From: Eledone cirrhosa | Taxonomy: Eukaryota | Direction: 5' to 3' | NCBI GenBank assembly: GCA_964016885.1 | Contig: OZ024740.1 | Location: 386,818,001-386,882,000, forward strand | DNA length: 64,000 nt | In this document: in pieces, positions 3,001 to 60,208 of the stretch | Numbering within the stretch: position 1 is the stretch's first letter | Layout of the letters: each line of letters starts with the position of its first letter | Position numbers and translations under genes: made by a program | The notes under the pieces: generated by a model | Database searches by the model: none | Seen by the model: only the letters and a program-made list of their open reading frames with translations | What the model was told of the DNA's origin: nothing

Positions 3001-3874
3001 ATCTTAATAACATCTCATCTCGAATATTTAATCATCATTTTATTTATGTTTTATAGAAATTACTTTTAGTTTTTGCTTTGTTTTTCTCTGTTGTTTTAGC
3101 TAATCAGTGATGCATAATTATTATGCAGGATTGTTAATCCATTGGGTGTGAAAAGAAAAAATTTGAACAGTGAAAGCTCGTGAGCTGAGATCATGATCTT
3201 ATTTTCCATTCATTGATGAATTTAATTAATCTAATTCAAGTTGCAAATGACCTATATGTTCTCCTCTAAAATACATACAGTATTGTGCTTGTATGAGAAA
3301 CTATGATTATAAAATAGGTAATTTATTTGTTGCACTTAAGCAAAAACTAAACAGATGAGGGCTATAGCTTAGAAACTCAGAAATGCTACTTTGATTCACA
3401 GTTGACACCATCTAACTTCAGTTGCATATCTAAAAGATTACAGACGGGCTGGATTAACCATTAGGCAAAATGAACACAACATTACGCCATCAAGGGAAGA
3501 GGGACACAATTTTATTCAGATTAATTGTGTTTGTTATTAAAAAAAATTGTTTTTTGATAACTTTATATATGGGGTAGGGGAGTACTGTAATCTTTTAAGT
3601 ACTTAAAACCTCAAAAGGACTTAATCTGATTCTGTTTGCATAACATTTTTACAGCTCTATATATTGGAGACCTTGTGCTTATCTCAGCAATCAATACTTT
3701 TAAGGTAGCCTGAAACTTTCTCTTTTCCTGTAAGATTAATATCAAAAATCAATAAAACTGTAGAGTAGCAGAAAACGTTGAGCATTGAGTTACATTGAGT
3801 TACATTTCTTTTACATTCTGAACTCGAATCTTACCAGTGTCACTTTGCTTTTTAGCCCTTCATAGTCTTTTTCT

Positions 3875-4212
3875 TCTTCTTGCCTACTTATTCCTGAGAG
3901 GGTCATGGGGGCAGAGTCCTCAAACACTCCTTCTAGCAAGTTCGGTCAGAAGCAACCATTTCCAACTGAACCAGCTGAATCCCCAAGTGAGACCAGCCAA
4001 GTTCATGGATGTTATCCAACCATATTGCTCAGGGTCTAACCCTAGGTCTCTTGCCAGTTGGTTTTGCACGTAAAATCTGTCCAGTGATTCTTTCTTGAGA
4101 TGTTCTAACCACATGCCATAGTATCGGAGCTGTAATCTCTCAATTTGGAGAAGTAGCGGCTCTACCTGGAGTAACTCTCTGATCTCTGAGTTACACACTT
4201 TATCGAGTAATG
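3875..4212 (-). mobile_element. Old RTE-type LINE 3' relic
   Basis: NSEIRELLQVEPLLLQIER.QLRYYG, similar to RTE C-termini. Confidence 0.6.
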
Positions 4213-4417
4213 TAAGATTACACAATTCGGGAGAAGAATATAAGCTATTGAAATTATTCTAATACATGACTTGTAATTTACTGACTATAGAGGGAGGAAT
4301 CCCATTTTGCGATTACTTCACGAAATGGGATTCCTCCCTTCATAGTCAATAAATTACAAGTCATATATTAGAATAATTTCAATAGCTTATATTCCTCTCC
4401 TGAACTTTGTAATCTTA
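4213..4417. repeat. Near-perfect palindrome, ~98-bp arms
   Basis: taagattacac...gaggaatcccattt / aaatgggattcctc...gtaatctta. Confidence 0.9.
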
Positions 4418-4448
4418 TGCCAAACACAGTTAATATTACCAATTACTT

Positions 4449-4720
4449 GTAAAGACCCCCTTTGATCATAAATGACCATGGGATTTGCACCTAGAAAGTT
4501 TCCCTCCGAGGCACAAGTCCAAGCAAGGTTGTTTGTGGAAAACCAGCAGTTGCCCATGCATACCAACCTCCCCTCTTCACACAACCAATGTTGTTCAAGG
4601 GAAAGGCAATGGCTGATACAGCTTGGCACCAGTCACATCGCAATTCATTTCTACAGCTAAGTAAACTGGAGCAACATGAAATAAATTGTCTTGTTCAAGG
4701 ACACAATGCATCACCCAGTC
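4449..4720 (-). mobile_element. SINE family C, head-truncated
   Basis: Reverse complement of 4920-5190. Confidence 0.8.
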
Positions 4721-4854
4721 AGTAGAGCCACTACCATTGACAGTTATTCTGTAAAACTACAAAATTATTTTTATTTTACTTGGGAAAATTAATCCAAAAT
4801 ATATAACTGGGAATCTGAACTAAATCAAGAAATTGGTTAACTTGTATGTATGAA

Positions 4855-5190
4855 AGTACATAGATTAGTGGTTAGAGCATTGGGCTTGCAATCGGAAGGT
4901 TGTGAGTTCGATTCTTGGACCAGGTAATGCATTGTGTCCTTGAGCAAGACACTTTATTTCATGTTGCTCCAGTTTACTCAACTGTAGAAATGAGTTAAGA
5001 CGTCACTGGTGCCAAGCTGCATTGGCCTTTGCCTTTTTCTTGGACAACATTGGTGGCATGGAGAGGGAAGACTGGTATGAATGAGCATCTGCTGGTCTTC
5101 CACAAACAACCTTGCCCAGACATGTGCCTCAGAAGGGAACTTTCTAAGTACAAATCCCATGATCATTTGTGACCAAAAGTGGTCTTTACA
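4855..5190 (+). mobile_element. tRNA-headed SINE family C (same head as family B, different tail)
   Basis: TAGTGGTTAGAGC...GAGTTCGATTC head and gtgtccttgagcaagacacttt core. Confidence 0.82.
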
Positions 5191-5229
5191 TAAGGACCTT
5201 TAACTATTGATGGAGTTGAGGAGCACCAT

Positions 5230-5950
5230 ATCAACATAGGTCATGAAATTTGGCACCCACAGAAAGTAAGCAACACTTTGAGAATTGATCTGATTGATTA
5301 AAAAGAGAGTTGAAAGTGTCTCTTAAATATAAGTTGTCCCAGACTCTCAGCTTCAATCTATTCTGCTCTACATCACGAACTGACAAACTCCCCTTTGGAG
5401 CTAGACCATGTTGAAAAGAAGAGTAAATTACCCACCAGAGCATGGATAGAAGACAGAAAGCAGGGAAGTGACAGAAATGAGCATTTACATAGACCTAAGC
5501 CCCCAAACCATTTGGGAAATGCAGCCTGGTCACAGAACTCTGGAGAAAATTTGACATTGATTAAGCATTCAAGTTTCCTGAAGATTATGTTGTCAAAACA
5601 TTGCAGATGTGACAAGAATCTATATAAAGCATATACAATCACTTTAGAATTGATAGGAAATTCTTAAGTATAAAAATATAAGGCTCCTATACATCAATGT
5701 TTTGGAATAACTGCTCAAGGTTTGCCATCTTAGAGAGAAAGGAGGGCTGAAAGGCTAAGTCAGTAATTGAGGCTCCTTGATAGTTTAGAAGACTTTTAGT
5801 TTGAACCTCAGTTATGCCCACACAGCTCCTGTGATATCTTCTGCAGCACAAGTGGCATTTGATCATTTTCAAATTGTGAATTGATGGCAACTGGCTCAAA
5901 AGAAGATATTGATTAGCCTGCTCTGTTGCAAGCATTCAGACCAGGTCTTT
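5230..5950 (-). mobile_element. CRE/MoTeR-like non-LTR retrotransposon relic
   Basis: QAAFPKWFGGLGL...SLPCFLSS resembles the CRE RT motif QA.LP.R.GGLG...A.PAFL.S. An upstream segment IKCHLCCRRYHRSCVG is PHD-like. Confidence 0.55.
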
Positions 5951-6925
5951 GGTCTGAAGACAACTTTCTCCCTATCACCCACCATTCTTGGATACCTAGA
6001 GAAAGGGCATGTAGGCTGTTTTTCCTCCTTTGAATTAAAAGAAAACGTCTTTACACTTAAAATCGAAATCCATAGCATATTTGACTGACCACCAACTACT
6101 AATGCTTTTTTTACTCAATATAGAGTTAGGAAGGGCATCCTGCCGTAGAAAACCAGCCAGAAACACCCCTATAAGAGCGAGACGTGATCACCTGACCCAA
6201 CTTGCCTCTAAATGGGACACATCTAACCCATGCTAGCGTGGAAGATGGACGTTAATCGATGATGATGATGATGATGATGATGATAGAGCTTTGTAGGGCA
6301 TGAGATATATTTTATATTAATCTTTTTGACACCAAGTCACCTGAAACCACCTATAGTTCTATGATACAAAACTGCTTATTTTAAAGCATATATATATATA
6401 TATAATTTTATGTAAGAACCTTTGTTAAGTTATGTTCCAATTAGAAGATTAATAATGAGAAAATTAGAGTTATTGTTTTGGGAAACTGCTTGTTTAAATA
6501 CTAAGTTGGAGCGATGTGACATAAATTAAATATCAAGTCACTGGGATCTAATCACATTTCTAGAGTGCCCATCACACAGTAAACATATACATATAGTATC
6601 TTTCCCTTTATTATACATGTGGGGCTGGAACCTTGCCGGAAGTATAATGGCCAGTAATGTCATGGGGTTGGAGGGCTTTGCTGGAAGTAGCAGGGCACAG
6701 TGATATCATGGAATAGGGAGGCAGTGTTGTGAACTTTTCTCACTCTCTTGGTCAATAATTGTAGGGGAAGGAGGTTGTGGTTTCTTTGTTCTGTATGTAG
6801 GGGTTAGATGAGGATATTTACTGGCAATAGGGTAGAGTTGAGCTGGGCACTTAAGGACCATGGATATACCACATTCTGAAGAATATTAGTCGGTGAACTA
6901 CATTTTCTCCCCTTGTACTTCAATA

Positions 6926-7104
6926 TAATTGTTTCTACTTTAGGCACAAGGCCAGCAATTACCCAGTGCATTACTAGTACTTTATGTTATCGACCCCGTA
7001 AGGATGAAAGGCAAAGTCAACCTCGGTGGGATTTGAACTCAGATGTAAAAAGACGTAACTATGCTGGAAAGCATGGCGTCCGACCCTCTACCGATACTGC
7101 CAAT
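6926..7104 (-). mobile_element. tRNA-headed SINE family A
   Basis: Shares the gttcaaatccc..cgagg..actttgcctttcatcc..ggggtcgataa core with the other copies. Confidence 0.8.
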
Positions 7105-7300
7105 AATATTTATTGTTCAGCATAGATGGCAAACAGTATGATATATGTATCAGTTATAAGTCTGATAAAGATTCATTGCATGTGTATAAGGGTTTTATCA
7201 ACATTTATGTTCTACCGATATTGCCAGATTGTTTTTGAATGTCATATTTAAAATGTTGTGTATAAATATACACATCGGGTAATATTCTCTAGTGTTGCTG

Positions 7301-8380
7301 TAGTGGGATCACAGGTAAGCTAACTAAGAATATAGATTTTATATGTGGCCAGTGCTCTGGTCCAATAAGTAGCAGCAAGTGCCCACAGAATACTAGCTCA
7401 TTCCATTGCACAGATGGTTCTATAGAAATAGTGGACACCTTCCGTTACCTGGGTGACAAAATCAGCAGTGGGGAGGGTGCTCTGAAAGTACAGTAGCTAA
7501 AGTCAGAACGGGATGGGAAAAGTTCAGAGAGCTTATACCACTATTGGCCGCTAAAGGGTTCTCTCTAAAAATGAAAGGCAGGCTGTATGATGCCTGCATA
7601 CGAACAGCAATGCTACATGGCAGTCAGACCTGGGCATTGTGTGCAGAGGATATACGAAGACTGGAGAGGAACGAAGCTTGCATGCTCCGCTGGATCTGTA
7701 ATAGTAATATACGTGAACGGCAAAGCATAAACGAACTAAGGGAGAAATTAGGAATAAGAGGGATCAGATGTTGTTTACTCGAGAGAAGACTACGTTGGTA
7801 CGGTCACGTGATGCGCATGAAAGACAACAGCTGTATAAAAAAGTGCAGGGCGATAAAAATAGACGGTAGCCACGGAGTATGCAGACCCAGAAAAACCTGG
7901 GACGACTTGATAAATTCCGACCTCACACACTTACACCTCTCCAAGACAATGTCACTGGACCGAGATCTTTGGCGCTACACAGTAATACAGAAGACCCGCC
8001 TTGCCTAAGTACAAAGCAAAACCTACAGTCAGTAGGCACCTCTAACAAAAATACACCCCTATCCCACTACCCCCACCCCATCCACACCACCCCATTCAAT
8101 GTGAAGTTATGTTGGTACCACAACATCCAGTCCGAAACAAATGAGGTCGTGTAGGTGTCACAACAAAAAAACACACAGTCCACACTGTAATGTAGCCGTC
8201 CGTGTAGGTAACACGGTAAAAACCTCCCAGTTCCACACTGTAAACGTGGTTGGTGTTATGAAGGGCATCCAGCTGTAGAAAACCCGCCAGACAGTCCTAT
8301 ACGAGCAGGACAACCAATCTTGCCTCAAGTGGGAAAACTCCCGTCCAAACCCATGCAAGCGTAGAAGATGGACGTTAAAC

Positions 8381-8408
<28 letters not shown>
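7301..8408 (+). mobile_element. 5'-truncated RTE LINE, subfamily A
   Basis: ORF 7544-8008 is the RTE C-terminus, followed by a ~400-bp 3' UTR and (GAT)n tail. Confidence 0.93.
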
Positions 8409-8411
<3 letters not shown>

Positions 8412-9052
8412 TTTATCTTGTTAAACGGCTGATCAACTAATTGACAGAATGTTCCAGTAATGGGATAAATGTTTCCTTCTAGTCTTAGTTTTGACATCAA
8501 ATCGAAAGAAAACATTTACATATCTGATTTATTACTTATATCATATGTTATTCCTTAGCCTGCACATGTGATCTATTCTTGACAATAGATTAAAATAGAG
8601 AATATCGTATGATATTGGGTGACACATAGCACCTTTGTTTAAACAATATCTTCAAGCTCCAGTTGACTCACGCATGGGAATTTTAATTCAGTACAACAAT
8701 AATCAGTTACATAAGTTTCTTGTAGTTTGACAAATTGACAAATAGGTTAGAGTATGAGACTAAATCCTCTGAGTTCAAATCCCACCAAAGTCAACATTGC
8801 CTTTCATCCTTTTGTGATTGGAAAATAAAGTACCAGTCTAGGGCTGGTGGAGTGGCAGAATTGTTAAAGAATCAGACAAGATGCTTTGTAATATCTGATT
8901 CAGCTTTGTACATTTCCGAGTTCAAATCTCACCTTCAGCAGATAGTATCAGCAATAGACGGACCAATAATTTCCTTTTTCTAATCTGACACCATTCGCTC
9001 CTTTCTTTTCTTTGCCTAATGTTTGTTGCTGCTTATGTGGCTACACATAGTA

Positions 9053-10176
9053 CAGGGTTGCTCAGTTCTTTGAAGACATTTGTATGGATTTAGTAAAAGA
9101 CTCGTAAGTCATGAAAGAAGAGCTTTATTAGAGAAAACATTAGCATGAATAATCTTGAGACTCTTCTTGACACACTTACTTAATGAATCCACCATTAGCA
9201 TCAATGACTGCTTCACTACAAGGTATGAAACATTGACATGTCCGAATCAGATAATCTTTATCTATTTTGGACATTCTGCTAGTTATGGTGGACTTCAGAA
9301 ATTTCATAGTGTTATGGGGGCATTGATTAACTTTCTTCTAAACTATGTCCCATACATAGTAGTCCAACAGATTCAGATCTGGAGAGTTAAGCGGTCTGAT
9401 GGTTGGGGTGACATAATGGGGAGATTGTAAGTCATTCGCTTTTGGATTGTCTTCACCTTATAAGACAGTGCAGGGTCTTGTTGTTAGATGACTTCCTGAT
9501 CCATCACAGTTGCTGGAAATTTTGTATACATAACTATTGGAACAACTTTAGGATCTCTGCATAACCATCTGTCATTTTTTCCATTGACTTTTTGGTCCTG
9601 ATCAAAGTTTTTCTCATCAGAGAAAAATCAAAGCATTCTAGGCTCTTGATGTTTCAATTTGCGCAACAAGCACTTTGCACAGATCAAATGATTATCTTTT
9701 GTCTTTGCAGACATAAATTGGCCTTTCAGTATCACATATGATTTGTATTGAATGTCCTCATGCATAATTCTTCCAACAATATACTTTGGAACCTTGAGCT
9801 CTTTAGCAATGGTGCTAATTGATTTTCTGGGATTCTTATCGATAATTGTCTGAACATTTTGTACAAATTTGGGTGTTCTGATAATATTAGGACCCTTAGC
9901 AGGCATTTTACATTTGACTATTGCTGTAGACTCCCCATCAGTGGCTGCCAGAGCTTTGTGGACTTTGACATCAAACGACCGTGAAACTTTCAGGAAGCAA
10001 GCAATCTCTAAATCATTATCCTCTGCCTTTAAGGCAATGATTACAGTGTCTTACAGTTACATTTACTGAGTTAGCTTGATGTCTATCATCATTTATCTGA
10101 AAAGAAATGATAATCAGAAGTTAGAAAAAAGTTAGAGCTATTAAAAGACATCTCCTTAAAGAACTGAGCACCCCTG
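9053..10176 (-). mobile_element. Decayed Tc1/mariner (maT/DD37D-like) transposon
   Basis: TIRs cagggttgctcagttcttt / aaagaactgagcacccctg with TA on both sides. Transposase remnants include the HTH (NPRKSISTIAKEL), FSDEK and NSPDLNLLDYYVW. Confidence 0.88.
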
Positions 10177-12050: not shown

Positions 12051-12469
12051 ATGCACTAGACAAAATATCTTGTGACATTTAGTTGAAATTGACTTTGCCT
12101 TTTATCCTTCCAAGGGTGATAATATTATGTACCAGTCAAATACTTGGGTCGATATGACCAGTAGTACCCAAACTTATTTTATCATAAAACGCGTATAGGT
12201 TTGTTTTTTTAAGCATGGAACCCATACCTATACTTTATGGACAATTCCCAAATTGAAACCAAATTTGTTTAAGAGAGTGAATTTATTTATACAATATATA
12301 TATATAATTATATGTATGTGTGTGTGTGTGTATATAAGCAAAGAGTTATTTAATTTGTTGGTTATTCAACAAATTTATTTATAACAGATTCGAAGCACTC
12401 TACAGGATTTTTCTGGAGTCTAATATCAATAATATTAATAAATGGAAACTATCTTTCTAAAACCATATT

Positions 12470-12530
12470 TATTTTATTATATATATTTCAAAGGTACCAA
12501 AATTTTGGTACGCTCTCATCAGATAAAATA
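12470..12530 (-). ncRNA. Minimal type-I hammerhead ribozyme motif, inverted partner of 12635-12695
   Basis: Same architecture on the minus strand; stem II GUACCAA-AAUU-UUGGUAC. Confidence 0.65.
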
Positions 12531-12634
12531 CAAAAGTTGTTTTATAAATAGTGACATATCTAAAAATTAAAACAGAACTTAAAACAAAAAGTTCTTGTTT
12601 TTTGGATATGTCACTATTTATAAAACAACTTTTG

Positions 12635-12695
12635 TATTTTATCTGATGAGGGTGAACCAAAATGTTGGTACCCTTGAAATATATATAATAAAATA
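12635..12695 (+). ncRNA. Minimal type-I hammerhead ribozyme motif
   Basis: UAUUUUAU-CUGAUGA-stem II-GAAA-U-AUAU-A-UA-AUAAAAUA. Perfect 8-bp stem I; the base of stem II is imperfect. Confidence 0.65.
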
Positions 12696-12753
12696 AATAT
12701 GGTTTTAGAAAGATAGTTTCTATTTATTAATATTATTGATATATATATATATA

Positions 12754-14242
12754 TCATCATCATCATCATCATCATCGTTTAGCGTCCGTGTTCCACACTT
12801 GCATGGGTTTGGACGGGGGTTTTCCACTTGAGGCAAGAGTGATTGTCTTGCTCGCATAGGACTGTCTGGCGGGTTTTCTACAGCTGGATGCCCTTCCTAA
12901 CACCAACCACATTTACAGTGTGGGGCTGGGAGGTTTTTACCGTGTTGCCTACATGGCCACATTACAGCATGGACTGTCTGGCGGGTTTTCTACAGCTGGA
13001 TGCCCTTCCTAACACCAACCACATTTACAGTGTAGGGCTGGGAGGTTTTTACCGTGTTGCCTACACGGCCACATTTACAGCGTGGACTGTGTGTTTTTTT
13101 GTCGTGACACCTACACGATCTCATTTGTTTCGGCCTCGATGGCGCGGGCACCAACATAACTTTACATTGAAAGGGGCGGTGTGGATGGGGTGGAGGTGGT
13201 GGGACGGGGGGGGGGGGGGGGGGGGGGGGGGGGTGATAGAGATGCCTACTGGCTGTAGTAGGTTTTTACTTTGTATTTAGGTAAGGCGGGTCTTCTCTAT
13301 TACTGAGTACCGCCAAAGGTCTCGGTCCAGTGACATTGTCTTGGAGAGGTGTAAGCGTGTGAGGTCGGAGTTTATCAGCTCATCCCAGGTTTTTCTGGGT
13401 CTGCCTACTCTGTGGCTACCGTCTATCTTTATTGCCCTGCACTTTGTTATACAGCTGTTGTCTTTCATGCGCATCACGTGACCAAAACAACGTAGCCTTC
13501 TCTCGAGTAAACAACATCTGATCCCTCTTATTTCTAATTTTTTCCTTAGTTCGTTTATGCTTTGCCGTTCACGTATATTACTATTGCACATCCAGCAGAG
13601 CATGCAAGCTTCGTTCCTCTCTAGTCTGCGTATATCCTCTGCACACAATGCCCAGGTCTGACTGCGATGCAGCATTGCTGTTCGTATGCAGGCATCGTAT
13701 AACCTGCCTTTCATTTTTAGGGAGAACCCTCTAGCGGCTAATAGTGGTATAAGCTCTCTGAACTTTTTCCATCCAGTTCTGACTCTAGCTACTGTACTTT
13801 CAGAGCACCCTCCCCCACTGCTGATTTTGTCACCCAGGTAACGGAAGCTGTCCACTATTTCTATAGAACCCTCTGCGCAGTTGAAGGAGCTAGTATTTTG
13901 TGGGCACTTGCTGCTACTTATTGCACCAGAGCACCGGCTACATGTAAAATCTATGTTCTTAGTTAGCTTACCTGTGATCCCACTACATCTTTTATGCACC
14001 CATACTTTGCATTTGGGACATAAAATGGAGTTTCTACCTACGCCTTTCCTACACACTGAGCATGGCCATTTCCCAGAAGGGACCGCCGCCTTTTTTTCTT
14101 TCCTACAAACTAGAACTTTAGTCTTAGCCAGGTTAATTTTAAGGCCTTTTGATTCTAGGCCGTGCTTCCATGTTTGGAATTTCTTCTCTAGTTCGGTCAT
14201 TGATTCAGCTATGAGCGTTAGATCATCTGCGTATAGGAGTTC
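12754..14242 (-). mobile_element. RTE subfamily A, 3' part (YADD to tail)
   Basis: ORF 13277-14260 (ELLYADD...KTRLT). (CAT)n at 12754 on the + strand. About 110 bp of the 3' UTR is tandemly duplicated. Confidence 0.95.
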
Positions 14243-14375
14243 GTACATACATACATACACCGGCAGCCGGTGTATGTATGTATGTCATTCAGCGCATCGG
14301 TAGGGGTTCTCCTACATGGATATAAAGTAGTGGCCATACTCGAAAACGAGTTGGCAGCCACCATGTATGTATACA

Positions 14376-17012
14376 CTCGCAGTTTAGCCCGGCGTTGCTC
14401 AGGTTTGTTCATTTGCTATGAAAAGTTACATACAGGTAAACGTGGCTTGAAAGCGAATAAGCTTATCAATTAAGTGCATAAAGCAGTTGAACCGGTTATT
14501 AAAAGTTACGAACCAATTAGCATTTTGGACAATCAATGATGGGTTAATAATCTTCCAATAGCGAATTTAGCAGACCAAAGTTGCAAGATGGTGGCCCTGA
14601 TGCCGCTGGGTGTCAGATCTGTCCGCCATGGGTGACCCTACCAGGAAATAGTTTTCCAGACGGCATAGCTCCAACACCTCCAACACATGCACCAACATCT
14701 ATAGCACCTCTTTGTAGACGATATTTCGTGTCATCCCTTGAGGAGTGTAAGCAAAAAGTCTATTCCTGCTCCCTACGTGGGAACAGACAACATGTGTGTG
14801 TGTGGATGCTACATTATTCGAGGTTGGCGTCTACACCACTCGCCCGATCTCGCTCAAATTTGCATACATCACTCCAGCTTAGGCTACTTTGTTTTTTGAT
14901 AGGTTCCCCCCAGGGGCCCGTAATCCACCTTTTTGTCTATTTTGGGTGAAATCGGGAGATGAGGTTGCATTTTATGCACGCATGAAAACTTTTTCCTTTT
15001 GAGTTTTTTAACCCGGTTTTTTGCTAATATGGGTAGAAAAGAGTCTAAATTTTGTTGACGTGCTCGAATCATTTTGAAATTCGGTCGAGAGTGAAGCTCG
15101 AGGTCGAATCTCCACTTCGTATATAGAGAGACAGGAATAACAGGTCTTATAGTAACATTACCTTCCCCTTCCCCCTTCTTTAGAGAGAGAGAGGAAGATA
15201 GAGAGAGAAGTTTTGGGTGTCACAGAAATATTACATTCCCCTCTCCACTTTGAGGATTTGATGTTCTGCAGCACGGGAGGCGGCGGTGGATACAGCGTTC
15301 TGGGACCTTCGCATAGCTGTCTGTATCTCGGTCTGGGATGCTCTGGCAGCTGCGGTGGAGGCCGAGTCCTTGGACCTTCGGATGGCTGTCTGTATCTCGG
15401 TCTGGGATGCTCTGGCAGCTGCCTTGGAGGCGGAGTCCTTGGACCTTCGGATGGCTGTCTCCTGGTCGGTTTCTGCGGCACGGGAGGCGGCGGTTGAAGC
15501 AGCGTTCTTTGACCGTCTGGTGGCTGTTTGCTGTTTAGTTTCGGAGGCCCTTGCAGCAGCAGTAGTTGCAGCATTCCTAGCCCTACGAAGAGCTCTTTGG
15601 CTGTCACTCTCTGCTGCCCTAGAGGCGGCTGTTGCAACTGCATTCTAACAATTACGAATGGCACAATTCGAAGCGGTAACCGTAGATAGAGAGGTGCTGG
15701 GTTGGGCTGTGCTAGGGGTAATTAAGTTTGAAAGCGAAGTAACAGGGGTTTGTGGCCAAAAATGCAGTCCGGCATCCGTAGACTGCTCATTCAATCGCCT
15801 CTTTTTTGAAACAACAGACGATGTTTTCCTACGGCTAAGGGTACTCTTTCTTTTCAGTGGCATGGTTGCAATAGTACAGTAAACAGTAAAGGGGAAGCAG
15901 GTTTAGAGCAAAGGCAAAAAAGCGAAGGTGATAAGCAGTATTTTGGGGAAGGTAAAAAAAAGTGACAAATTGTTACAATTTTAAGCAAGAAAAAAGTAAA
16001 CAAAAAAAGTACTGGGAATGGCAAAGTCCGAAAGCGAGGTCACAAAATGTAATGCAGTGAGAGTGAAGCACACGTCTACACAGTAGCCTAACCAAGTAGC
16101 AAGTGTAGCGTTTGAAAACCAAAGCTTTGCAGGCCACTCAAATCAACGATAAGAGTCTGCAGAATTTTTTGATAGCAGTCTTGCCAAAACAGAATAAAAG
16201 CTGCCACTTCCAGCCGTACAGGAAATTTTTTGTTTGATTCAAGGCGAAAATTTGTCCACTTCTCGACCGAAAGAAAGCAAAAACTGACTCAACTGGTGCC
16301 AGGTGGTCAGAACTGGCAGGAACTGGTTTGTGTCACGTGAAGCTGTAACTATAGCAACAATGGTTCCCTCGGTCTCAAAGACCAAAGTAAGTGGAGAGGG
16401 GAAGGTAATGTTACTGTAACACCGACAACGTCTCTCTCTATATTCCTCGCTCAATAAAAAAAGGGGAGGGGGAAGGTAATGTTACTATAGCAACAGTGGT
16501 TCGCTCACTGACCAAAGTGGAGAGGGGAATGTAATATTTCTGTGACACCCAAAACTTCTCTCTCTATCTTCCTCTCTCTCTCTCTAAAGAAGGGGGAAGG
16601 GGAAGGTAATGTTACTATAAGACCTGTTATTCCTGTCTCTCTATATACGAAGTGGAGATTCGACCTCGAGCTTCACTCTCGACCAAATTTCAAAATGATT
16701 CGAGCATGTCAACAAAATTTAGACTCTTTTCTACCCATATTAGCAAAAAACCGGGTCAAAAAACTCAAAAGGAAAAATTTTTCACGCGTGCATAAAATGC
16801 AACCTCATCTCCCGATTTCACCCAAAATAGACAAAAAGGTGGATTACGGGCCCCTGGGGGGAACCTATCAAAAAACAAAGTAGCCTAAGCTGGAGTGATG
16901 TATGCAAATTTGAGCGAGATCGGGCGAGCGGTGTAGACACCAACCTCGAATAATGTAGCATCCACACACACACATGTTGTCTGTTCCCACGTAGGGAGCA
17001 GGAATAGACTTT
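14376..17012 (-). mobile_element. Helitron-derived composite with ~500-bp inverted arms
   Basis: Arms 14755-15252 and 16513-17012. RepHel-like N-terminal repeat reading frame at 15250-15863. Helitron-like 3' end (ctgagcaacgccggg...cgag|t) at about 14376. Confidence 0.65.
15250..15863 (-). pseudogene. Helitron RepHel N-terminal region: basic leader plus five 23-aa Ala/Arg repeats, one in-frame TAG
   Basis: Reading through the TAG at 15645-15647 gives RAAESDSQRALRRARNAATTAAA / RASETKQQ... / RASQTEIQTAIRRSKDSASTAAA. Nucleotide period is 69 bp. Confidence 0.65.
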
Positions 17013-17998
17013 CATCTCAGCATCTCAGCAACTCAGCAACTATTTCCGAAGGCCCAGCTGCCTTACCCGTCTTCATATCTTTGATTGCCTTACTTATTAT
17101 ACTACCCTCGACTAACACTGCTGGTCCCTCTATTGGGTCGATGTGGGGGAGACTGTCTTTCTACCATTTATTCTCCTCATTTAGTAGCCTTTCGTAGTGA
17201 CACTTCCAAGCTATCTTCTTATCAGCGTCGGTGATGGCAAGTACGCCATCATCATTAAGTACACACTTCTCCCCGACAATATCATGGTTTTCCTTGACAC
17301 ATTGCCTAGCAATCCTGAACACCTCACGTTTTTGGTCCTCGCGTTGTAGAACATGCTTGAACTTTCTTTCCTCTGCTTCCCTTCTTGCGAAGTACACTTG
17401 TCTCCTAGCTTCCCTCCTGGCCACTTGGTAGTCTTCTCTACTTCCCCCATCCCGCCATACTTTCCAAGCCTTCTTTTTGGCCTTAATTGACCCCTCCACC
17501 TTACTGTTCCACCACCATGTTACTCTCCTCCTGCCTACAGGCCTGCTCCAGCCACAGACTTCGTCTGCCGCCATCAGCAGGTTTGCTTTCAGGAATTCCC
17601 ACTGTTCTTCTATATTGTACGACTCTAATTGCTCTTCCTTACTGTTGAAAGTATCAAGTAGTATGCTTTTAAATTTATTTCTGGCTGTGGGGTCCTTTAG
17701 CTTTCATATTTTTCTCCTGAGGATAGTCCTCGTCTGCTGTCTAGTATGTCTCGTCCTGACTATTAGGTCGCTAATTATCAGTCTATCTTGGGAGGTGCAT
17801 TCTTCATGGGGGAGGGATTTAGTGTTTACAACAGACACTCTGTCACGTCTTCTGGTAAAGATATAAACTACCTGGCTTGTGTGTGTCCCCGATCTATAGG
17901 TGATCAGGTGATTGTCTCGTTTTTTTAAGTTAGTGTTACAGATAGTTAAGTTATTTGCGTCACAGAATTCCAGGATTCTGGAGCCTTCCTCATTTCTA
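17013..17998 (-). mobile_element. RTE subfamily A, upstream (late endonuclease/linker) part; probably the same insertion as 12754-14242
   Basis: ORF 17161-17574 (VTWWWN...KCHYERLLNEEN) is nearly identical to 20121-20710. Same strand and colinear with the 3' part. Confidence 0.9.
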
Positions 17999-18631: not shown

Positions 18632-20097
18632 AGTAGATGAATGGCTTGTGAAATCGGTACAAGCCATGTATAGGGGAGCAGTCAGCAAAGTTAGGATTAG
18701 CAATGAGTATAGCGAGGAATTTACCGTACATGTTGGGGTCCACCAGGGCTCTGTTCTTAGCCTCCTCCTGTTCATCATAGTCCTGCAGGCAATAACGGAG
18801 GAGTTTAAGACCAGATGCCCATGGGAACTCCTGTATGCTGATGACCTCGCACTTATAGCTGAATCGATGGTAGAACTAGAGAAGAAATTCCAAACTTGGA
18901 AGCAGGGACTAGAAAGAAAGGGTCTCAAAGTCAACATGACAAAGACTAAGGTCCTTGTAAGTAGACGAGAAGACAGAATCCAGATCCCCTCAGGAAAATG
19001 GCCTTGCTCAGTATGTAGGAAAGATGTAGGTAGGAACTCCATTCTCTGCCCCAAATGCTAAAAAATGGGTACACAAGAGATGTAGTGGGATCTCAGGAAG
19101 CTTAATTAAGAATGTAGGCTTCACATGCAGCAGCTGTGCTGGGACAGCAAGCAACAAACAGCCACAGGAAACAAGTACCACCAATCTCTGGGAGGGCCCT
19201 GTAGAAACAGTAGACAGCTTCTGCTACCTAGGTGACCGAATTAGTAGCGGAAGTGGGTGTTTAGAAAGTACAATAACTAGGGTAAGAACGGGATGGAAGA
19301 AGTTTAGGGAACTACTACCACTGCTAGCTGCAAAAGGCTTCTCCCTCAAAATGAAAGGCAGACTGTATGATGCGTGTATCCGAACAGCGATGTTGCATGG
19401 TAGTGAGACCTGGGTGCTGAAGGTGGAAGGCTTACGTAGATTAGAGAGAAACGAAGCCTCCATGCTCCGATGGATGTGTAATAGTAATATACGCGAACGA
19501 CAAAGCATATATGAATTGAGAGAGAAACTGAGCATAAGAGGAATCAAATGCTGTGTGCAGGAGAGATGGTTGCGTTGGTATGTACATGTGATGCGTATGA
19601 AGGATGACAGCTGCATAAAAAGGTGCAGAGCACTAGAAGTCGATGGAAACCGCGGAGTGGGGAGACCCAAGATGACCTGGAATGAGGTGATAAAAGCCGA
19701 CCTTACCCAATTACACCTCTCAAAGGCGATGACACACGACTGTGACCTCTGGCGTCACGCAGTTATACAGAGTACCCGACCTCCATGGGTACAAGCTGAA
19801 GCTTATAGACAATATGCCCCCACACTCCCCACTGCAAGGTGATCGTGGAGGTGCCACGGCAAAAAAGCACTCAGCCCACACTGTAAAGTGGACATGTAGG
19901 CGCAACGAGAAAGCACCCAGCACTCACTGTAAATGAGGTTGGTGTTAGGAAGGGCATCTAGCTGTAGAAATCAAGCCAAATCAGTTCCTGTATGAGCAAG
20001 GCATGGTCAGCCGACCAGACACTGCCCACAACAGGACAACCCGTCTAATCCATGCTAGCGTGGAAGAACGGACGTAAAACGGTGATGATGACGATGT
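18632..20097 (+). mobile_element. 5'-truncated, disrupted RTE LINE, subfamily B
   Basis: ORFs 18648-19061 (YADD) and 19351-19842; distinct 3' UTR; GAT tail. Confidence 0.93.
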
Positions 20098-20120
20098 ATC
20101 ATCATCATCATCATCATCAT

Positions 20121-22667
20121 CTAGAGGAACAGTGGGAATTCCTGAAAGCAAACCTGCTGACGGCAGCAGACGAAGTCTGTGGCTGGAACAGGCCTGTAGG
20201 TAGGTTGAGAGTAACATGGTGGTGGAACAGTAAGGTGGAGGAGTCAATTAAGGCCAAAAAGCAGGCTTGGAAAGTATGGCGGGATGGGGGAAGTAGAGAA
20301 GACTATCAAGTGGCCAGGAGGGAAGCTAGGAGACAAGTGTACTTCGCAAGAAGAGAAGCAGAGGAAAGAAAGTTCAAGCATGTTCTACAACGTGAGGACC
20401 AAAAACGTGAGGTGTTCAGGATTGCCAGGCAATGTGTCAAGGAAAACCGTGATATTGTCGGGGAGAAGTGTGTACTTAATGATGATGGTGTACTTGCCAT
20501 CACTGACGCTGATAAGAAGGTAGCTTGGAAGTGTCACTACGAAAGGCTACTAAATGAGGAGAATAAATGGGAGAAAGACAGTCTCCCCCACATCAACCCA
20601 ATAGAGAGACCGACAGTGTTAGTCGAAGTTAGTATAATAAGTAAGGCAATCAAAGATATGAAGTTGGGTAAGGCGGCTGGGCCTTCGGAAATAGTTGCTG
20701 AGATGCTGAAAGCCTCTGGAACGGTGGGACACACCATGGTCACGCGGATAGTAAACCAAGTCATACAGAATGGGGTTGTTCCGAAGGACTGGCGTAGCAG
20801 CATCATCATTAACTGTTACAAGGGTAAAGGAGATGCCCTAGATAGGAGTAACTATAGAGGCATTAAATTAATCGACCAGGTCATGAAGGTCACGGAAAAA
20901 GTTATAGCGCAACTAATCAGAGAGAGAATTGATCTAGATGAAATGCAGTTCGGTTTTGTGTCAGGCAAAAGTACCACAGACGCTCTTTTCATTGTACGAC
21001 AACTACAGAAGTAACTAGCTAAAAGTAAACCCCTATACTTAGCTTTTGTTGACTTGGAGAAAGCCTTCGACAGAGTCCCCCGTTCCATTATCTGGTGGGC
21101 TCTTAGAAAACTAGGTGTTGACGAATGGCTTGTGAGAGCTATACAAGCCATGTATAAAGAAACAGTCAGCAAGGTTAGAATTAACAACGAATATAGTGAA
21201 GAGTTTAGCGTAAAAGTTGGTGTACATCAGGGCTCTGTTCTTAGCCCCCTACTATTTATTATTGCCCTTCAGGCTATAACAGTGGAGTTCAAGACCGGCT
21301 GCCCATGGGAACTCCTATACGCAGATGATCTAACGCTCATAGCTGAATCAATGGCCGAGCTAGAGAAGAAATTCCAAACATGGAAGCACGGCCTAGAATC
21401 AAAAGGGCTTAAAATTAACCTGGCTAAGACTAAAGTTCTAGTTTGTAGGAAAGAAAATAAGGCGACGGTCCCTTCGGGGAAATGGCCATGCTCAGTGTGT
21501 AGGAAAGGCGTAGATACAAACTCCATTTTATGTCCCAAATGCAAAGTATGGGTGCATAAAAGATGTAGTGGGATCACAGGTAAGCTAACTAAGAACATAG
21601 ATTTTACATGTAGCCGGTGCTCTGGTGCAATAAGTAGCAGCAAGTGCCCACAAAATACTAGCTCTTTCAATTGCGCAGAGGGTTCTATAGAAATAGTGGA
21701 CAGCTTCCGTTACCTGGGTGACAAAATCAGCAGAGGGGGAGGGTGCTCTGAAAGTACAGTAGCTAGAGTCAGAACTGGATGGAAAAAGTTCAGAGAGCTT
21801 ATACCACTATTAGCCACTAAAGGGTTCTCCCTAAAAATGAAAGGCAGGTTGTATGATGCCTGCATACGAAGAGCAATGTTGCATGGCAGTGAGACCTGGG
21901 CATTGTGTGCAGAGGATATACGCAGACTAGAGAGGAACGAAGCTTGCATGCTCTGCTGGATGTGTAATAGTAACATATGTGAACGGCAAAGCATAAGCGA
22001 ACTAAGGAAAAAATTAGAAATAAGAGGGATCAGATGTTGTTTACTCGAGAGAAGACTACGTTGGTATGGTCACGTGATGCGCATGAAAGACGACAGCTGT
22101 ATAACAAAGTGCAGGGCAATAAAGATAGATGGTAGCTACGGAGTAGGCAGACCCAGAAAAACCTGGGACGAGCTGATAAATTCCGACTTCACACACTTAC
22201 ACCTCTCCAAGACAATGTCACTGGACCGAGACCTTTGGCGGTACACAGTAATAGCGAAGACCCGCCTTACCTAAATACAAAGTAAAACCTACTACAGTCA
22301 GTAGGCATCTCTAACAAAATACACCCCCGTCACACCACCCCCACCCCATCCACACCGCCCCTTTCAATGTAAAGTTATGTTGGTGCCACAACATCCAGGC
22401 CGAAACAAATGAGATCGTGTAGGTGTCACGACAAAAAAACACACAGTCCACGCTGTAATGTGGCCGTGTAGGCAACACGGTAAAAACCTCCCAGCCCCAC
22501 ACTGTAAATGTGGTTGGTGTTAGGAAGGGCATCCAGCTGTAGAAAACCCGCCAGACAGTCCTATGCGAGTAAGACAATCACTTTTGCCTCAAGTGGGAAA
22601 ACCCCCGTCCAAACCCATGCAAGCGTGGAACACAGACGTTAAACGATGATGATGATGATGATGATGA
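20121..22667 (+). mobile_element. 5'-truncated RTE LINE, subfamily A
   Basis: ORFs 20052-21014 and 21054-22274 are in the same frame, separated by a stop. (GAT)n tail. Confidence 0.95.
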
Positions 22668-22701
22668 TATATTTATATATGTATATATATATGTATATAT
22701 G

Positions 22702-28765: not shown

Positions 28766-30108
28766 CGACCTGACACTCATAGCGGAATCAATGGCCGAGC
28801 TAGAGAAGAAATTCCAAACATGGAAGCACGGCCTAGAGTCAAAAGAACTTAAAATTAACCTGGCTAAGACCAAAGTTCTAGTTTGTAGGAAAGAAAACAA
28901 GGCGGCGGTCCCTTCTGGGAAATGGTCGTGCTCGGTATGTAGGAAAGGCGTAGGTAGAAACTCCATCTTATGTCCTAAATGCAAAGTATGGGTGCATAAA
29001 AGATGTAGTGGGATCACAGGTAAGCTAACTAAGAACATAGACTTTACATGTGGCCGGTGTTCTGGTGCAATAAGTAGCAGCAAGTGCCCACAAAATACTA
29101 GCTCTTTCAATTGCGCAGAGGGTTCTATAGAAATAGTGGACAGCTTCCGTTACCTGGGCGATAAAATCAGCAGTGGGGGAGGGTGCTCTGAAAGTACTGT
29201 AGCTAGAGTCAGAACTGGTTGGAAAAAGTTCAGAGAGCTTATACCACTATTAGCTGCTAAAGGGTTCTCCCTAAAAATGAAAGGCAGGTTGTACGATGCC
29301 TGCATACGAACAGCAATGCTGCATGGCAGTGAGACCTGGGCATTGTGTGCAGAGGATATACGCAGACTAGAGAGGAACGAAGCTTGCATGCTCCGCTGGA
29401 TGTGTAACAGTAATATACGTGAACGGCAAAGCATAAACGAACTAAGGAAAAAATTAGAGATAAGAGGGATCAGATGTTGTTTACTCGAGAGAAGGCTACG
29501 TTGGTATGGACACGTGATGCGCATGAAAGTCGATAGCTGTATAACAAAGTGCAGGGCAATAAAGATAGACGGTAGTCACGGAATAGGCAGACCTAGAAAA
29601 ACCTGGGACGAGCTGATAAACTCCGACATCACACATTTACACCTCTCCAAGACAATGTCACTGGACCGAGACCTTTGGCGGTACTCAGTAACAGAGAAGA
29701 CCCGCCTTACCTAAATATATAGTAAAACCTACTCCAGCCAGTAGGCATCTCTAACAAAATACACCCCGTCCCACCACCACCACCCCCACCCCATCCACAC
29801 CACCCCGTTCTATGTAAAGTTATGTTGGTGCCGCGCCATCCAGGCCGAAACAAATGAGATCGTGTAGGTGTCACGACAAAAAAACACACAGTCCACGCTG
29901 TAATGTGGCCGTGTAGGCAACACGGTAAAAACCTCCCAGACCCACACTGTAAATGTGGTTGGTGTTAGGAAGGGCATCCAACTGTAGAAAACCTGCCAGA
30001 CAGTCCTATGCGAGCAAGGCAATCACTCTTGCTTCAAGTGGGACTACCCCCGTCCAAACCCATGCAAGCGTGGAACACGGACGTTAAACGATGATGATGA
30101 TGATGATG

Positions 30109-30113
<5 letters not shown>
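28766..30113 (+). mobile_element. 5'-truncated RTE LINE, subfamily A
   Basis: RT C-terminal part of ORF 28662-29714; (GAT)n tail; (AT)n on both sides. Confidence 0.95.
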
Positions 30114-30138
<25 letters not shown>

Positions 30139-59667: not shown

Positions 59668-60208
59668 GAAATATATGGGCATTTCTCTGTTTGTCTGTCT
59701 GTCCTTCCCTAAAACTCAAATGTAGGTGCTACAGAAATATTACCTTCCCCTTCCTTTCTCCACTTTGGTACTACCAAGAGAAACACTGTCGCTATAGAAA
59801 CATTACCTTCCCCTCTCCACTGACTTTGGTCACTGAGGCCGAGGGAATCGCTGGTTGCTATAGAGACACCTTGCACAAGCCAGAAGTAACCAGTTCGAGG
59901 CGGTTCTGACTTGACACCATGCCAAGGACCATTTGAAGATATATTTCCATTCTTATATCATAACGTTTATGTATCATAACGTTTATATTTCCGTCACTAA
60001 TCTCTTTTTCTCCTTTTTCGTTTTAACATATATTTATTTCAAAGATTTCACCGTATAGATAACATATATATTTATACATGCATAAAAGACACACCGAGAG
60101 ACGGTAAACATGTGGTGCCGTAAACATTTCTCATCCAAATCTCAACAATATCAGTATATACACTAGATTTGCTAGCAGAAAACCGCCCACCGGGTGGTTT
60201 TCTGCTAG
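59005..60208 (+). mobile_element. Non-autonomous Helitron(s) in CLNS1A intron 5, with a nested SINE
   Basis: A|TC...TATAATATATAA...TGTCTGTCTGTC 5' signature; 3' hairpin plus CTAG at 60172-60208. Segment 59790-59920 is homologous to 16290-16420 (reverse). It may be two elements. Confidence 0.6.
59274..59467 (+). mobile_element. SINE family A, nested in a Helitron
   Basis: Full unit. Confidence 0.85.

What the first reader, a model, noticed from the sequence alone, without database searches (positions are those of the whole stretch)
14376..17012. Helitron turned into a TIR-like cassette, replacing an RTE RT core
Seen: ~500-bp near-identical inverted arms (14755-15252 and 16513-17012) enclose 1.26 kb with a RepHel-like N-terminus, and a Helitron-like 3' end lies beyond the left arm. 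The block sits between two colinear halves of one RTE, from which ~600 bp (AEML to ELLYADD) is missing. Established: canonical Helitrons lack long TIRs and TSDs. Inference: either a template-switch product in which the element's 5' end was recopied in inverse, or a new foldback element family built from Helitron parts.
Basis: partly seen in the sequence, partly recalled or inferred. Interest (0 to 1): 0.7.

Follow-up and report, generated by a model that had tools for sequence, protein, structure and literature searches.

The report
Hybrid Helitron with recopied mirror arm
This is one of a handful of hybrid rolling-circle transposons (Helitrons) that carry an internal mirror copy of their front end, and here the outer arm was likely recopied from the inner arm in a DNA-copying slip that would also have removed about 590 bases of the surrounding retrotransposon, making it a damaged Helitron rather than a new kind of inverted-repeat element.

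Summary
The arms are real (491/500 identical) but not terminal. The block is a roughly 2.65-kb non-autonomous hybrid Helitron: the 5' 1.75 kb of family A (promoter region, start of RepHel), an inverted copy of 460 bp of that 5' region, then the last 418 bp of family B. Its two junctions occur at 3 and 5 loci of this genome. The other copies keep Helitron ends; one sits in an A|T site without duplication. Only the window copy lacks the 5' end. Its outer arm carries an inner-arm allele, a 16-bp deletion private to both arms, and 38 bp of family B sequence, so it was recopied from the inner arm, likely by fold-back synthesis that rejoined 587 bp further on in the RTE. At the left, the Helitron abuts an 80-bp retroposon-like stub, not the RTE itself. 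No independent reads bridged the window-only junction. The template-switch reading holds; the TIR/foldback-family reading does not. The scan had no note on this sequence but has unreviewed notes on other Helitron families here with mirrored 3' ends. Modest interest.

The parts
12749..14242 (-). 3' half of an RTE-type LINE copy (RT C-terminal part from ELLYADD, PHD-like finger, 3' UTR, (GAT)n tail)
   Evidence: 94% to the RTE at 20119-22700; RVT_1 and PHD hits; tail seen; the clade name RTE is recalled, not tested by a tree
14245..14285 (.). 41-nt palindrome at the left junction; centre 14262-14271 is RTE sequence, right arm is (GTAT)n filler, left arm is its inverse copy replacing 5 RTE bases
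   Evidence: fold -20.4 kcal/mol, 0 of 200 shuffles as stable
14286..14372 (+). Last 79 bp plus (GTAT)n tail of a high-copy, variably 5'-truncated, retroposon-like repeat ('X')
   Evidence: 837 first-look candidates, 15 other loci identical over 80 nt among 40 scored; fixed 3' end, variable 5' end
14376..14793 (-). 3' end of Helitron family B: last 33 codons of the PIF1-type helicase, 3' UTR, subterminal palindrome, terminus (CGAG here, CTAG in relatives)
   Evidence: 96-98% to many loci, 1923 first-look candidates; helicase C-terminus in L066; ends compared
14755..15252 (.). Inner arm: 14794-15252 is an inverted copy of the family A 5' region; 14755-14793 is family B sequence
15253..15256 (.). 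Junction 1 (spacer to inner arm): 4 inserted bases between two copies of a 4-nt word
   Evidence: present at 3 loci
15257..16512 (-). Spacer: family A 5' UTR (with about 130-bp repeats at 16344-16619) and truncated RepHel N-terminus with 69-bp, 23-residue STPR-like repeats (15271-15546)
   Evidence: 95-97% to family A copies; STPR hit weak, E 0.037, below cut-off
16513..16974 (-). Outer arm, family A 5' region; at least 16846-16974 carries inner-arm alleles and the private 16-bp deletion
16975..17012 (+). 38 bp of family B helicase sequence copied from 14755-14792, standing where the roughly 33-bp Helitron 5' terminus is in other copies
17013..17035 (.). Right junction filler: short tandem re-copies (4-8 nt) of the adjacent RTE sequence
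   Evidence: sequence compared with 29 RTE copies
17025..17995 (-). 5' half of the RTE copy, itself 5'-truncated against a (TA)n tract
   Evidence: 96.7-97.5% to 29 copies

Best explanation
The block is a copy of a small non-autonomous hybrid Helitron whose outer arm was recopied from its inner arm, likely by fold-back DNA synthesis at this locus that rejoined about 587 bp further on in the RTE and removed the Helitron's 5' end. Step 1 (junctions shown, mechanism inferred): a founder was made by two template switches or end-joining events, joining family A 5' part, an inverted copy of A's 5' region, and a family B 3' end. Step 2 (shown by copies and ends): this founder moved as an ordinary Helitron to at least 3 loci in full form, with derivatives at 2 more; trans-mobilisation by family A RepHel is inferred. 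Step 3 (inferred): at the window an RTE had received a 5'-truncated copy of repeat X, and the hybrid inserted at the tail of X. Step 4 (direction shown, mechanism inferred): a 3' end in the outer arm paired with the inner arm, was extended 38 nt past the limit of homology, slipped a few times and annealed to the RTE. A second, tiny fold-back made the 41-nt palindrome at the left junction. The window copy is predicted to be immobile because it has lost the 5' terminus.
For: Junction 1 at 3 loci; junction 2 at 5 loci, twice in the window. Window, L021 and L022 share 3 spacer alleles, 2 of them in 0 of 18 family A copies. L021 and L090 begin with the family TC terminus and end CTAG|T; L022 has the same 5' sequence running into (TA)n and a shortened 3' end. 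L090's flanks match uninterrupted relatives at an A|T step with no duplication (3 matches). Window outer arm: allele at 16846 shared with 3 of 3 full-length-type inner arms, 0 of 3 other outer arms and 0 of 18 family A; 16-bp deletion in both window arms and in 0 of 25 other rows spanning it; base at 17006 shared by both window arms, not by 4 of 4 other hybrid junctions. Both RTE halves carry alleles of the same 9-of-29 subgroup. 7 of 9 informative X copies have a microsatellite filler at their truncation point, as here. Helraiser needs its left end but tolerates loss or change of the right end (PMC4778049, passages).
Against: No contig or read in 4 runs bridged 16974-17028 (the tool warns that a hole proves nothing). 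Timing is not resolved: arm-to-arm divergence (7/458, 0.76% per arm) cannot be told from the copy's private divergence (9/953 in the spacer), so recopying at insertion is not excluded. The second side of X's insertion and the Helitron's original 5' flank are gone, so step 3 cannot be checked. RTE subgroup sharing is partial: one left-half allele is shared with 12 copies mostly outside the subgroup, and the 29 copies were chosen by likeness to the right half. L060 and the partial extra arm in L021 have family-type alleles at 16846. Microhomology at the right junction (4 nt) holds only for an RTE allele seen in 2 of 29 copies.
Confidence: 0.62

Rival explanations
1. Same hybrid, but the recopying happened during Helitron integration: while the second strand was filled in across the newly joined single strand, the nascent strand switched to its own inner arm and rejoined 587 bp into the target.
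For: Arm divergence and copy age are statistically alike; a single-stranded insert with 460-bp inverted arms would fold; the 3' end sits at a normal Helitron junction followed by T.
Against: Needs a donor that already had the 16-bp deletion and the 17006 change; none is among the 5 junction-bearing loci.
Confidence: 0.22
2. The whole 14243-17024 block is filler DNA copied from another locus (Helitron plus its X flank) into a break in the RTE, with templated junctions at both sides.
For: Both junctions show templated short copies; one family B copy (L030/L059) is also followed by X.
Against: X is high-copy; L030 is a plain family B copy, 93.9% identical, without the hybrid junction; none of the other 4 hybrid loci has X at its 3' end; the left junction looks like a normal X truncation point.
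Confidence: 0.08
3. A foldback/TIR-type family built from Helitron parts that moves by its long inverted arms.
For: 500-bp arms at 98%; several copies carry both arms.
Against: Copy boundaries are the Helitron ends, not the arm ends; no target duplication at the testable site; symmetric ends at 1 of 5 loci; no TIR transposase ORF in the block.
Confidence: 0.02
4. The window-only part (38-bp extension, loss of 5' end and 587 bp RTE) is an assembly or read artefact.
For: No bridging reads in other samples; inverted repeats are error-prone in assembly (general knowledge).
Against: The recopied part has since gained one CpG-type change on each arm, and the arms differ at 7 sites plus an indel; a fold-back read artefact gives identical arms and a misjoin at inverted repeats only flips the spacer (inference). 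The core hybrid is at independent loci.
Confidence: 0.06

Closest known systems
Non-autonomous canonical Helitrons (HLE1; PMC11417382, passages; PMC6544945, passages)
   Same: 5' TC, 3' subterminal palindrome and CTAG, A|T target without duplication, RepHel-coding parent in the genome.
   Different: Carries an internal 460-bp inverted copy of its own 5' region; 5' and 3' ends come from two families about 66% identical in RepHel DNA.
Chimeric/compound Helitrons such as HelibatN539 (PMC4224331, passages) and Helraiser end-bypass products (PMC4778049, passages)
   Same: 5' end of one Helitron joined to the 3' end of another and then mobilised as a unit.
   Different: The intervening DNA is not host flank but an inverted piece of the element's own 5' region, with microhomology-type junctions, which fits template switching or filler-type repair better than simple read-through.
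Quasi-palindrome template-switch mutations (PMC3820800, passages) and fold-back priming at breaks near inverted repeats (PMC10622511, abstract)
   Same: One arm of an imperfect inverted repeat is rewritten from the other and identity is extended beyond the old boundary.
   Different: Scale: 460-bp arms with a 1.26-kb loop, short extension (38 nt) and return to the chromosome with a 587-bp deletion rather than a few bases or a chromosome-arm duplication; no experiment here.
HLE2/Helentron elements with short terminal or subterminal inverted repeats (PMC11417382, passages)
   Same: Rolling-circle element with inverted repeats.
   Different: HLE2 repeats are 12-16 nt and the target is T|T; here arms are 460 bp, internal, and the ends are of HLE1 type.

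Membership tests
HLE1 Helitron (non-autonomous), the subfamily as a whole | 5' terminus TC | tested here: met
   L021 and L090 start with TC; L022 runs into (TA)n so the C is not seen. Not met by the window copy itself, which has lost it.
HLE1 Helitron (non-autonomous), the subfamily as a whole | 3' terminus CTRR | tested here: met
   CTAG in L021, L090, L060 and L022 (shortened end); window copy has CGAG
HLE1 Helitron (non-autonomous), the subfamily as a whole | Subterminal 3' hairpin | tested here: inconclusive
   A conserved GC-rich palindromic motif precedes CTAG in families A, B and D, but folding is weak: L021 -4.5 kcal/mol, 40 of 200 shuffles as stable; window -1.8, 156 of 200
HLE1 Helitron (non-autonomous), the subfamily as a whole | A|T target, no target-site duplication | tested here: met
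   L090: flanks match 3 uninterrupted relatives at an A|T step. One locus only; L021 has G|T next to another CTAG end, L022 sits in (TA)n, the window's 5' side is lost.
HLE1 Helitron (non-autonomous), the subfamily as a whole | Autonomous partner with Rep and PIF1 domains sharing the ends | tested here: met
   Family A copies of 6.7-6.9 kb with Helitron_like_N and PIF1 hits; family B PIF1 hit in L066. All ORFs seen were interrupted; no RepHel tree was built.
HLE1 Helitron (non-autonomous), the subfamily as a whole | Mobilised by RepHel in trans | not testable with these tools
   inferred from ends
TIR / foldback DNA transposon | Inverted repeats at the element's termini | tested here: not met
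   Copies extend about 33 bp beyond the outer arm and about 420 bp beyond the inner arm
TIR / foldback DNA transposon | Target-site duplication | tested here: not met
   None at L090; none at 14755/17012 in the window, where 14754 continues as family B sequence
TIR / foldback DNA transposon | Multiple copies bounded by the arm ends | tested here: not met
   Outer 38-bp extension at 1 of 5 junction-bearing loci
HLE2 / Helentron | Short (12-16 nt) end repeats and T|T target | tested here: not met
   TC/CTAG ends and A|T target; transposase clade not tested

The most novel reading that the evidence does not exclude
The window is a fossil of Helitron integration going wrong: the mirrored 5' region let the single-stranded intermediate or its nascent second strand fold back and prime on itself, rewriting the element's own 5' end and deleting 587 bp of target. 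The mirrored arm would make this subfamily a self-rearranging Helitron (4 of 5 loci have a further breakpoint inside an arm) and one route by which rolling-circle elements seed long inverted repeats and local deletions.
Probability: 0.2. Interest if true: 0.5.

Novelty: new variant of a known kind. Interest (0 to 1): 0.27.

Why it matters
It is a well-resolved natural record of two known processes acting in series: Helitron end swapping between families, and rewriting of one arm of a long inverted repeat from the other. Sister copies preserve the 'before' state, so the direction of copying can be read from alleles. It shows that long inverted arms in a Helitron context can mimic a TIR element and mislead annotation. 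With 3-5 copies and no sign of a new transposition chemistry it does not change the classification of transposons.

Tried and rejected
L030/L059 (family B copy followed by X) as the donor of the block: rejected, X is high-copy and the locus lacks the hybrid junction. L021's apparent 'filler' after its partial arm: mostly the normal family A sequence that the window has deleted. Public runs: the look-up of sequencing runs gave 7 holders, all as short-read contigs; laying 4 runs on 13600-17700 and 4 runs on 16860-17075 showed family alleles and the normal 5' end but nothing across 16974-17028; these are probably other individuals or species, so this neither confirms nor refutes. Pfam at E<=0.01 found nothing in the spacer peptides; at E<=5 only a sub-threshold STPR hit. 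Folding did not single out the 3' hairpin. Dating the recopying relative to insertion failed for lack of sites. Look-ups of earlier scan notes by sequence and near this place gave nothing. Genome DNA searches score only 40 candidates, so copy counts are lower bounds; the two pattern searches scan by motif and would miss diverged junctions (one search missed L021). No RepHel or RTE tree was built. Supplements of papers were not read.

Full report
Observation. No other close copy of the arms or spacer lies in the window apart from a 73-78% fragment at 59725-59910. The flanks match the RTE-type copy at 20119-22700 at 94-95% and are colinear with it. Against 29 genomic copies picked by likeness to the right half, 602 bp separate the two match ends in 19, range 505-611. 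The clade name RTE and my guess that this 3.0-Gb animal genome is a cephalopod are recalled, not tested.

What the parts are. A search of the genome with 14230-17030 (40 of 2670 candidates scored) showed that 15257-16974 is the 5' part of a Helitron family, here called A, at 92-97% identity. In 18 fetched copies the sequence continues past 16974; 17 of the 18 show the same terminal block (L015 does not), ending in TC or running into (TA)n. Two measured copies are 6.7 and 6.9 kb; family A ORF pieces hit Helitron_like_N and PIF1, and all were interrupted. An arm 30-mer has 52 exact matches, 5 of them in the three hybrid loci. The spacer peptide is 117/118 identical to the family A N-terminus; its 23-residue repeats are STPR-like, below the Pfam cut-off. 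The stretch 14376-14793 is the 3' end of another family, B (1923 first-look candidates): the last helicase codons, 3' UTR and a CTAG end, mutated to CGAG in the window. A and B are about 66% identical over RepHel DNA. The first 38-39 bp of the 'arms' are therefore B helicase sequence, not A.

The hybrid is a small mobile subfamily. Junction 1 (spacer to inverted arm) occurs at 3 loci with up to 2 mismatches allowed: the window, C3:40.16 Mb (L022) and C4:360.95 Mb (L021). Junction 2 (inverted arm to B) occurs at 5 loci, adding C14:11.23 Mb (L090) and C1:176.28 Mb (L060), and twice in the window. Window, L021 and L022 share three spacer alleles, two absent from 18 of 18 family A copies. L021 (3011 bp) and L090 (about 1020 bp) run from TC to CTAG; L022 has the same 5' sequence against (TA)n and a 3' end lacking half of the palindrome. 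L090's two flanks match three uninterrupted relatives across an A|T step, with no duplication. These are the HLE1 rules as stated in PMC11417382 (passages) and PMC6544945 (passages). L090 has lost the spacer; L021 has an extra partial arm; L060 is a third family (D, with RepHel) whose last 145 bp, present in 11 of 11 fetched D copies, are replaced by part of the arm and the B end at a 3-nt match. So 4 of 5 loci have a further breakpoint in an arm. By coordinates, 3 of the other 37 top-scored family A loci are broken in or beside that region, but top-scoring favours unbroken copies, so this contrast is weak.

The window copy alone was rewritten. In an alignment of 28 arm rows (sites listed) the window's outer arm has the allele at 16846 found in the full inner arms of the window, L021, L022 and L090, in 0 of 3 other outer arms and 0 of 18 family A copies; L060 and L021's partial arm have the family allele. 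It also has the inner arms' six-G run at 16862, a weaker marker since G-run length varies. Both window arms lack the same 16 bp, present in 25 of 25 other rows that span the site; among all stored loci only those of the window carry the deletion allele. Both share a base at 17006 that the four other hybrid junctions lack. In place of the 5' terminus the outer arm continues with the 38 bp of B that follow the inner arm. The direction of copying, inner to outer, over at least 16846-17012, is thus read from the sequence. The join to the RTE shows 4-8-nt tandem re-copies of RTE sequence; a 4-nt microhomology exists only with an allele seen in 2 of 29 RTE copies. Since the copying, the arms have come to differ at 7 of 458 sites, against 12 of 475 and 29 of 474 in L022 and L021 and a mean 2.9% between family A copies.

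The left side. 14286-14364 is the 3' end of a high-copy repeat X (837 candidates; 15 other loci identical over 80 nt) with a fixed 3' end, a (GTAT)n or (AT)n tail and variable 5' truncation, from about 190 to 660 bp; that pattern suggests retroposition, which I did not test further. Seven of nine informative truncated copies have a microsatellite filler at the truncation point, as here (rows dropped: one without flank, one duplicate, eight whose match began within the reference's own microsatellite). The 41-nt palindrome at 14245-14285 contains 10 nt of RTE at its centre and replaces 5 RTE bases on its left, a miniature of the same fold-back event. The main RTE loss is therefore about 587 bp. 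The two RTE halves share alleles with the same 9 of 29 copies (two sites right, three left; Spearman 0.79 across copies), which favours one original copy, though one left-half allele points to a different group.

Mechanism. Most likely order: RTE, then truncated X into it, then the hybrid Helitron at X's tail, then fold-back recopying with deletion. A plus-strand 3' end in the outer arm pairing with the inner arm and extending 38 nt reproduces 16975-17012 exactly; rejoining in the RTE removes the 5' terminus, the far side of X's insertion and 587 bp. This resembles quasi-palindrome template switching (PMC3820800, passages) and fold-back priming near inverted repeats (PMC10622511, abstract). 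Because loss of the left end abolished Helraiser transposition while loss of the right end did not (PMC4778049, passages), the window copy is predicted to be dead, and swapping of 3' ends among families A, B and D is expected; a compound element from two Helitron ends is described in bats (PMC4224331, passages). Whether recopying followed or accompanied insertion is open: 0.76% per arm versus 0.94% private change in the spacer (9/953 after removing four shared alleles) cannot be separated. The shared private deletion favours a later event unless the donor is missing from the assembly.

Assembly check. No contig or read of the runs laid bridged the window-only junction. Against artefact: each arm has its own CpG-type change inside the recopied part, and the core hybrid occurs on other contigs.

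Novelty. Three searches (listings only unless cited above) found no report of a Helitron with an internal inverted copy of its 5' region; the library lacks most subscription papers. PMC13282606 (passages) gave only repeat-class counts. Unreviewed scan notes describe other Helitron families in this genome with mirrored 3' ends; I did not test them, and the present case differs in mirroring the 5' region and in having few copies. Verdict: real, explained by known processes, a low-copy structural variant of HLE1 plus a one-off rearrangement. Interest 0.27.

Noticed in passing
L059 (G000:C3:205199000-205208900), about 624-2816 versus 6914-9233: A family B Helitron 3' end with its X flank and neighbouring RTE 3' end is present twice in opposite orientation, a multi-kilobase inverted duplication at another Helitron locus.
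   Followed up: no
L060 (G000:C1:176281000-176290900), 3446-9392: A RepHel-coding family D Helitron has swapped its own 3' terminus for part of the inverted A arm plus the family B end, a three-family chimera.
   Followed up: partly
L022 arms (G000:C3:40.16 Mb): Both arms share one transversion seen in no other row, a hint of arm-to-arm conversion; its B part has family-majority alleles at three sites where the other four hybrids differ.
   Followed up: no
window 12423-12742: MITE-like element with 144-bp arms at 95% and a 32-bp spacer, directly beyond the RTE tail.
   Followed up: no
window 20094-20121: The 5'-truncated RTE copy at 20119 starts with an inverted run of tail-type (CAT)n repeats next to the tail of the preceding copy; tail-derived filler at 5' junctions may be common here.
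   Followed up: no
window 14286-14372 and loci L068-L081: Repeat X, up to about 660 bp, young and abundant, often has (GTAT)n on both sides; its mobilising partner was not identified.
   Followed up: partly
window 59725-59910: Fragment 73-78% similar to the family A 5' repeat region, apparently part of a related non-autonomous Helitron.
   Followed up: no
L010 (G000:C12:34961138-34965855), 308-1728: The 69-bp STPR-like coding repeat of family A is expanded to about 20 units, a minisatellite grown inside the Helitron ORF.
   Followed up: no
window 12854-13093: 113-bp tandem duplication in the RTE 3' UTR, also split at the same place in the copies at 22440-22700 and 29885-30137.
   Followed up: no
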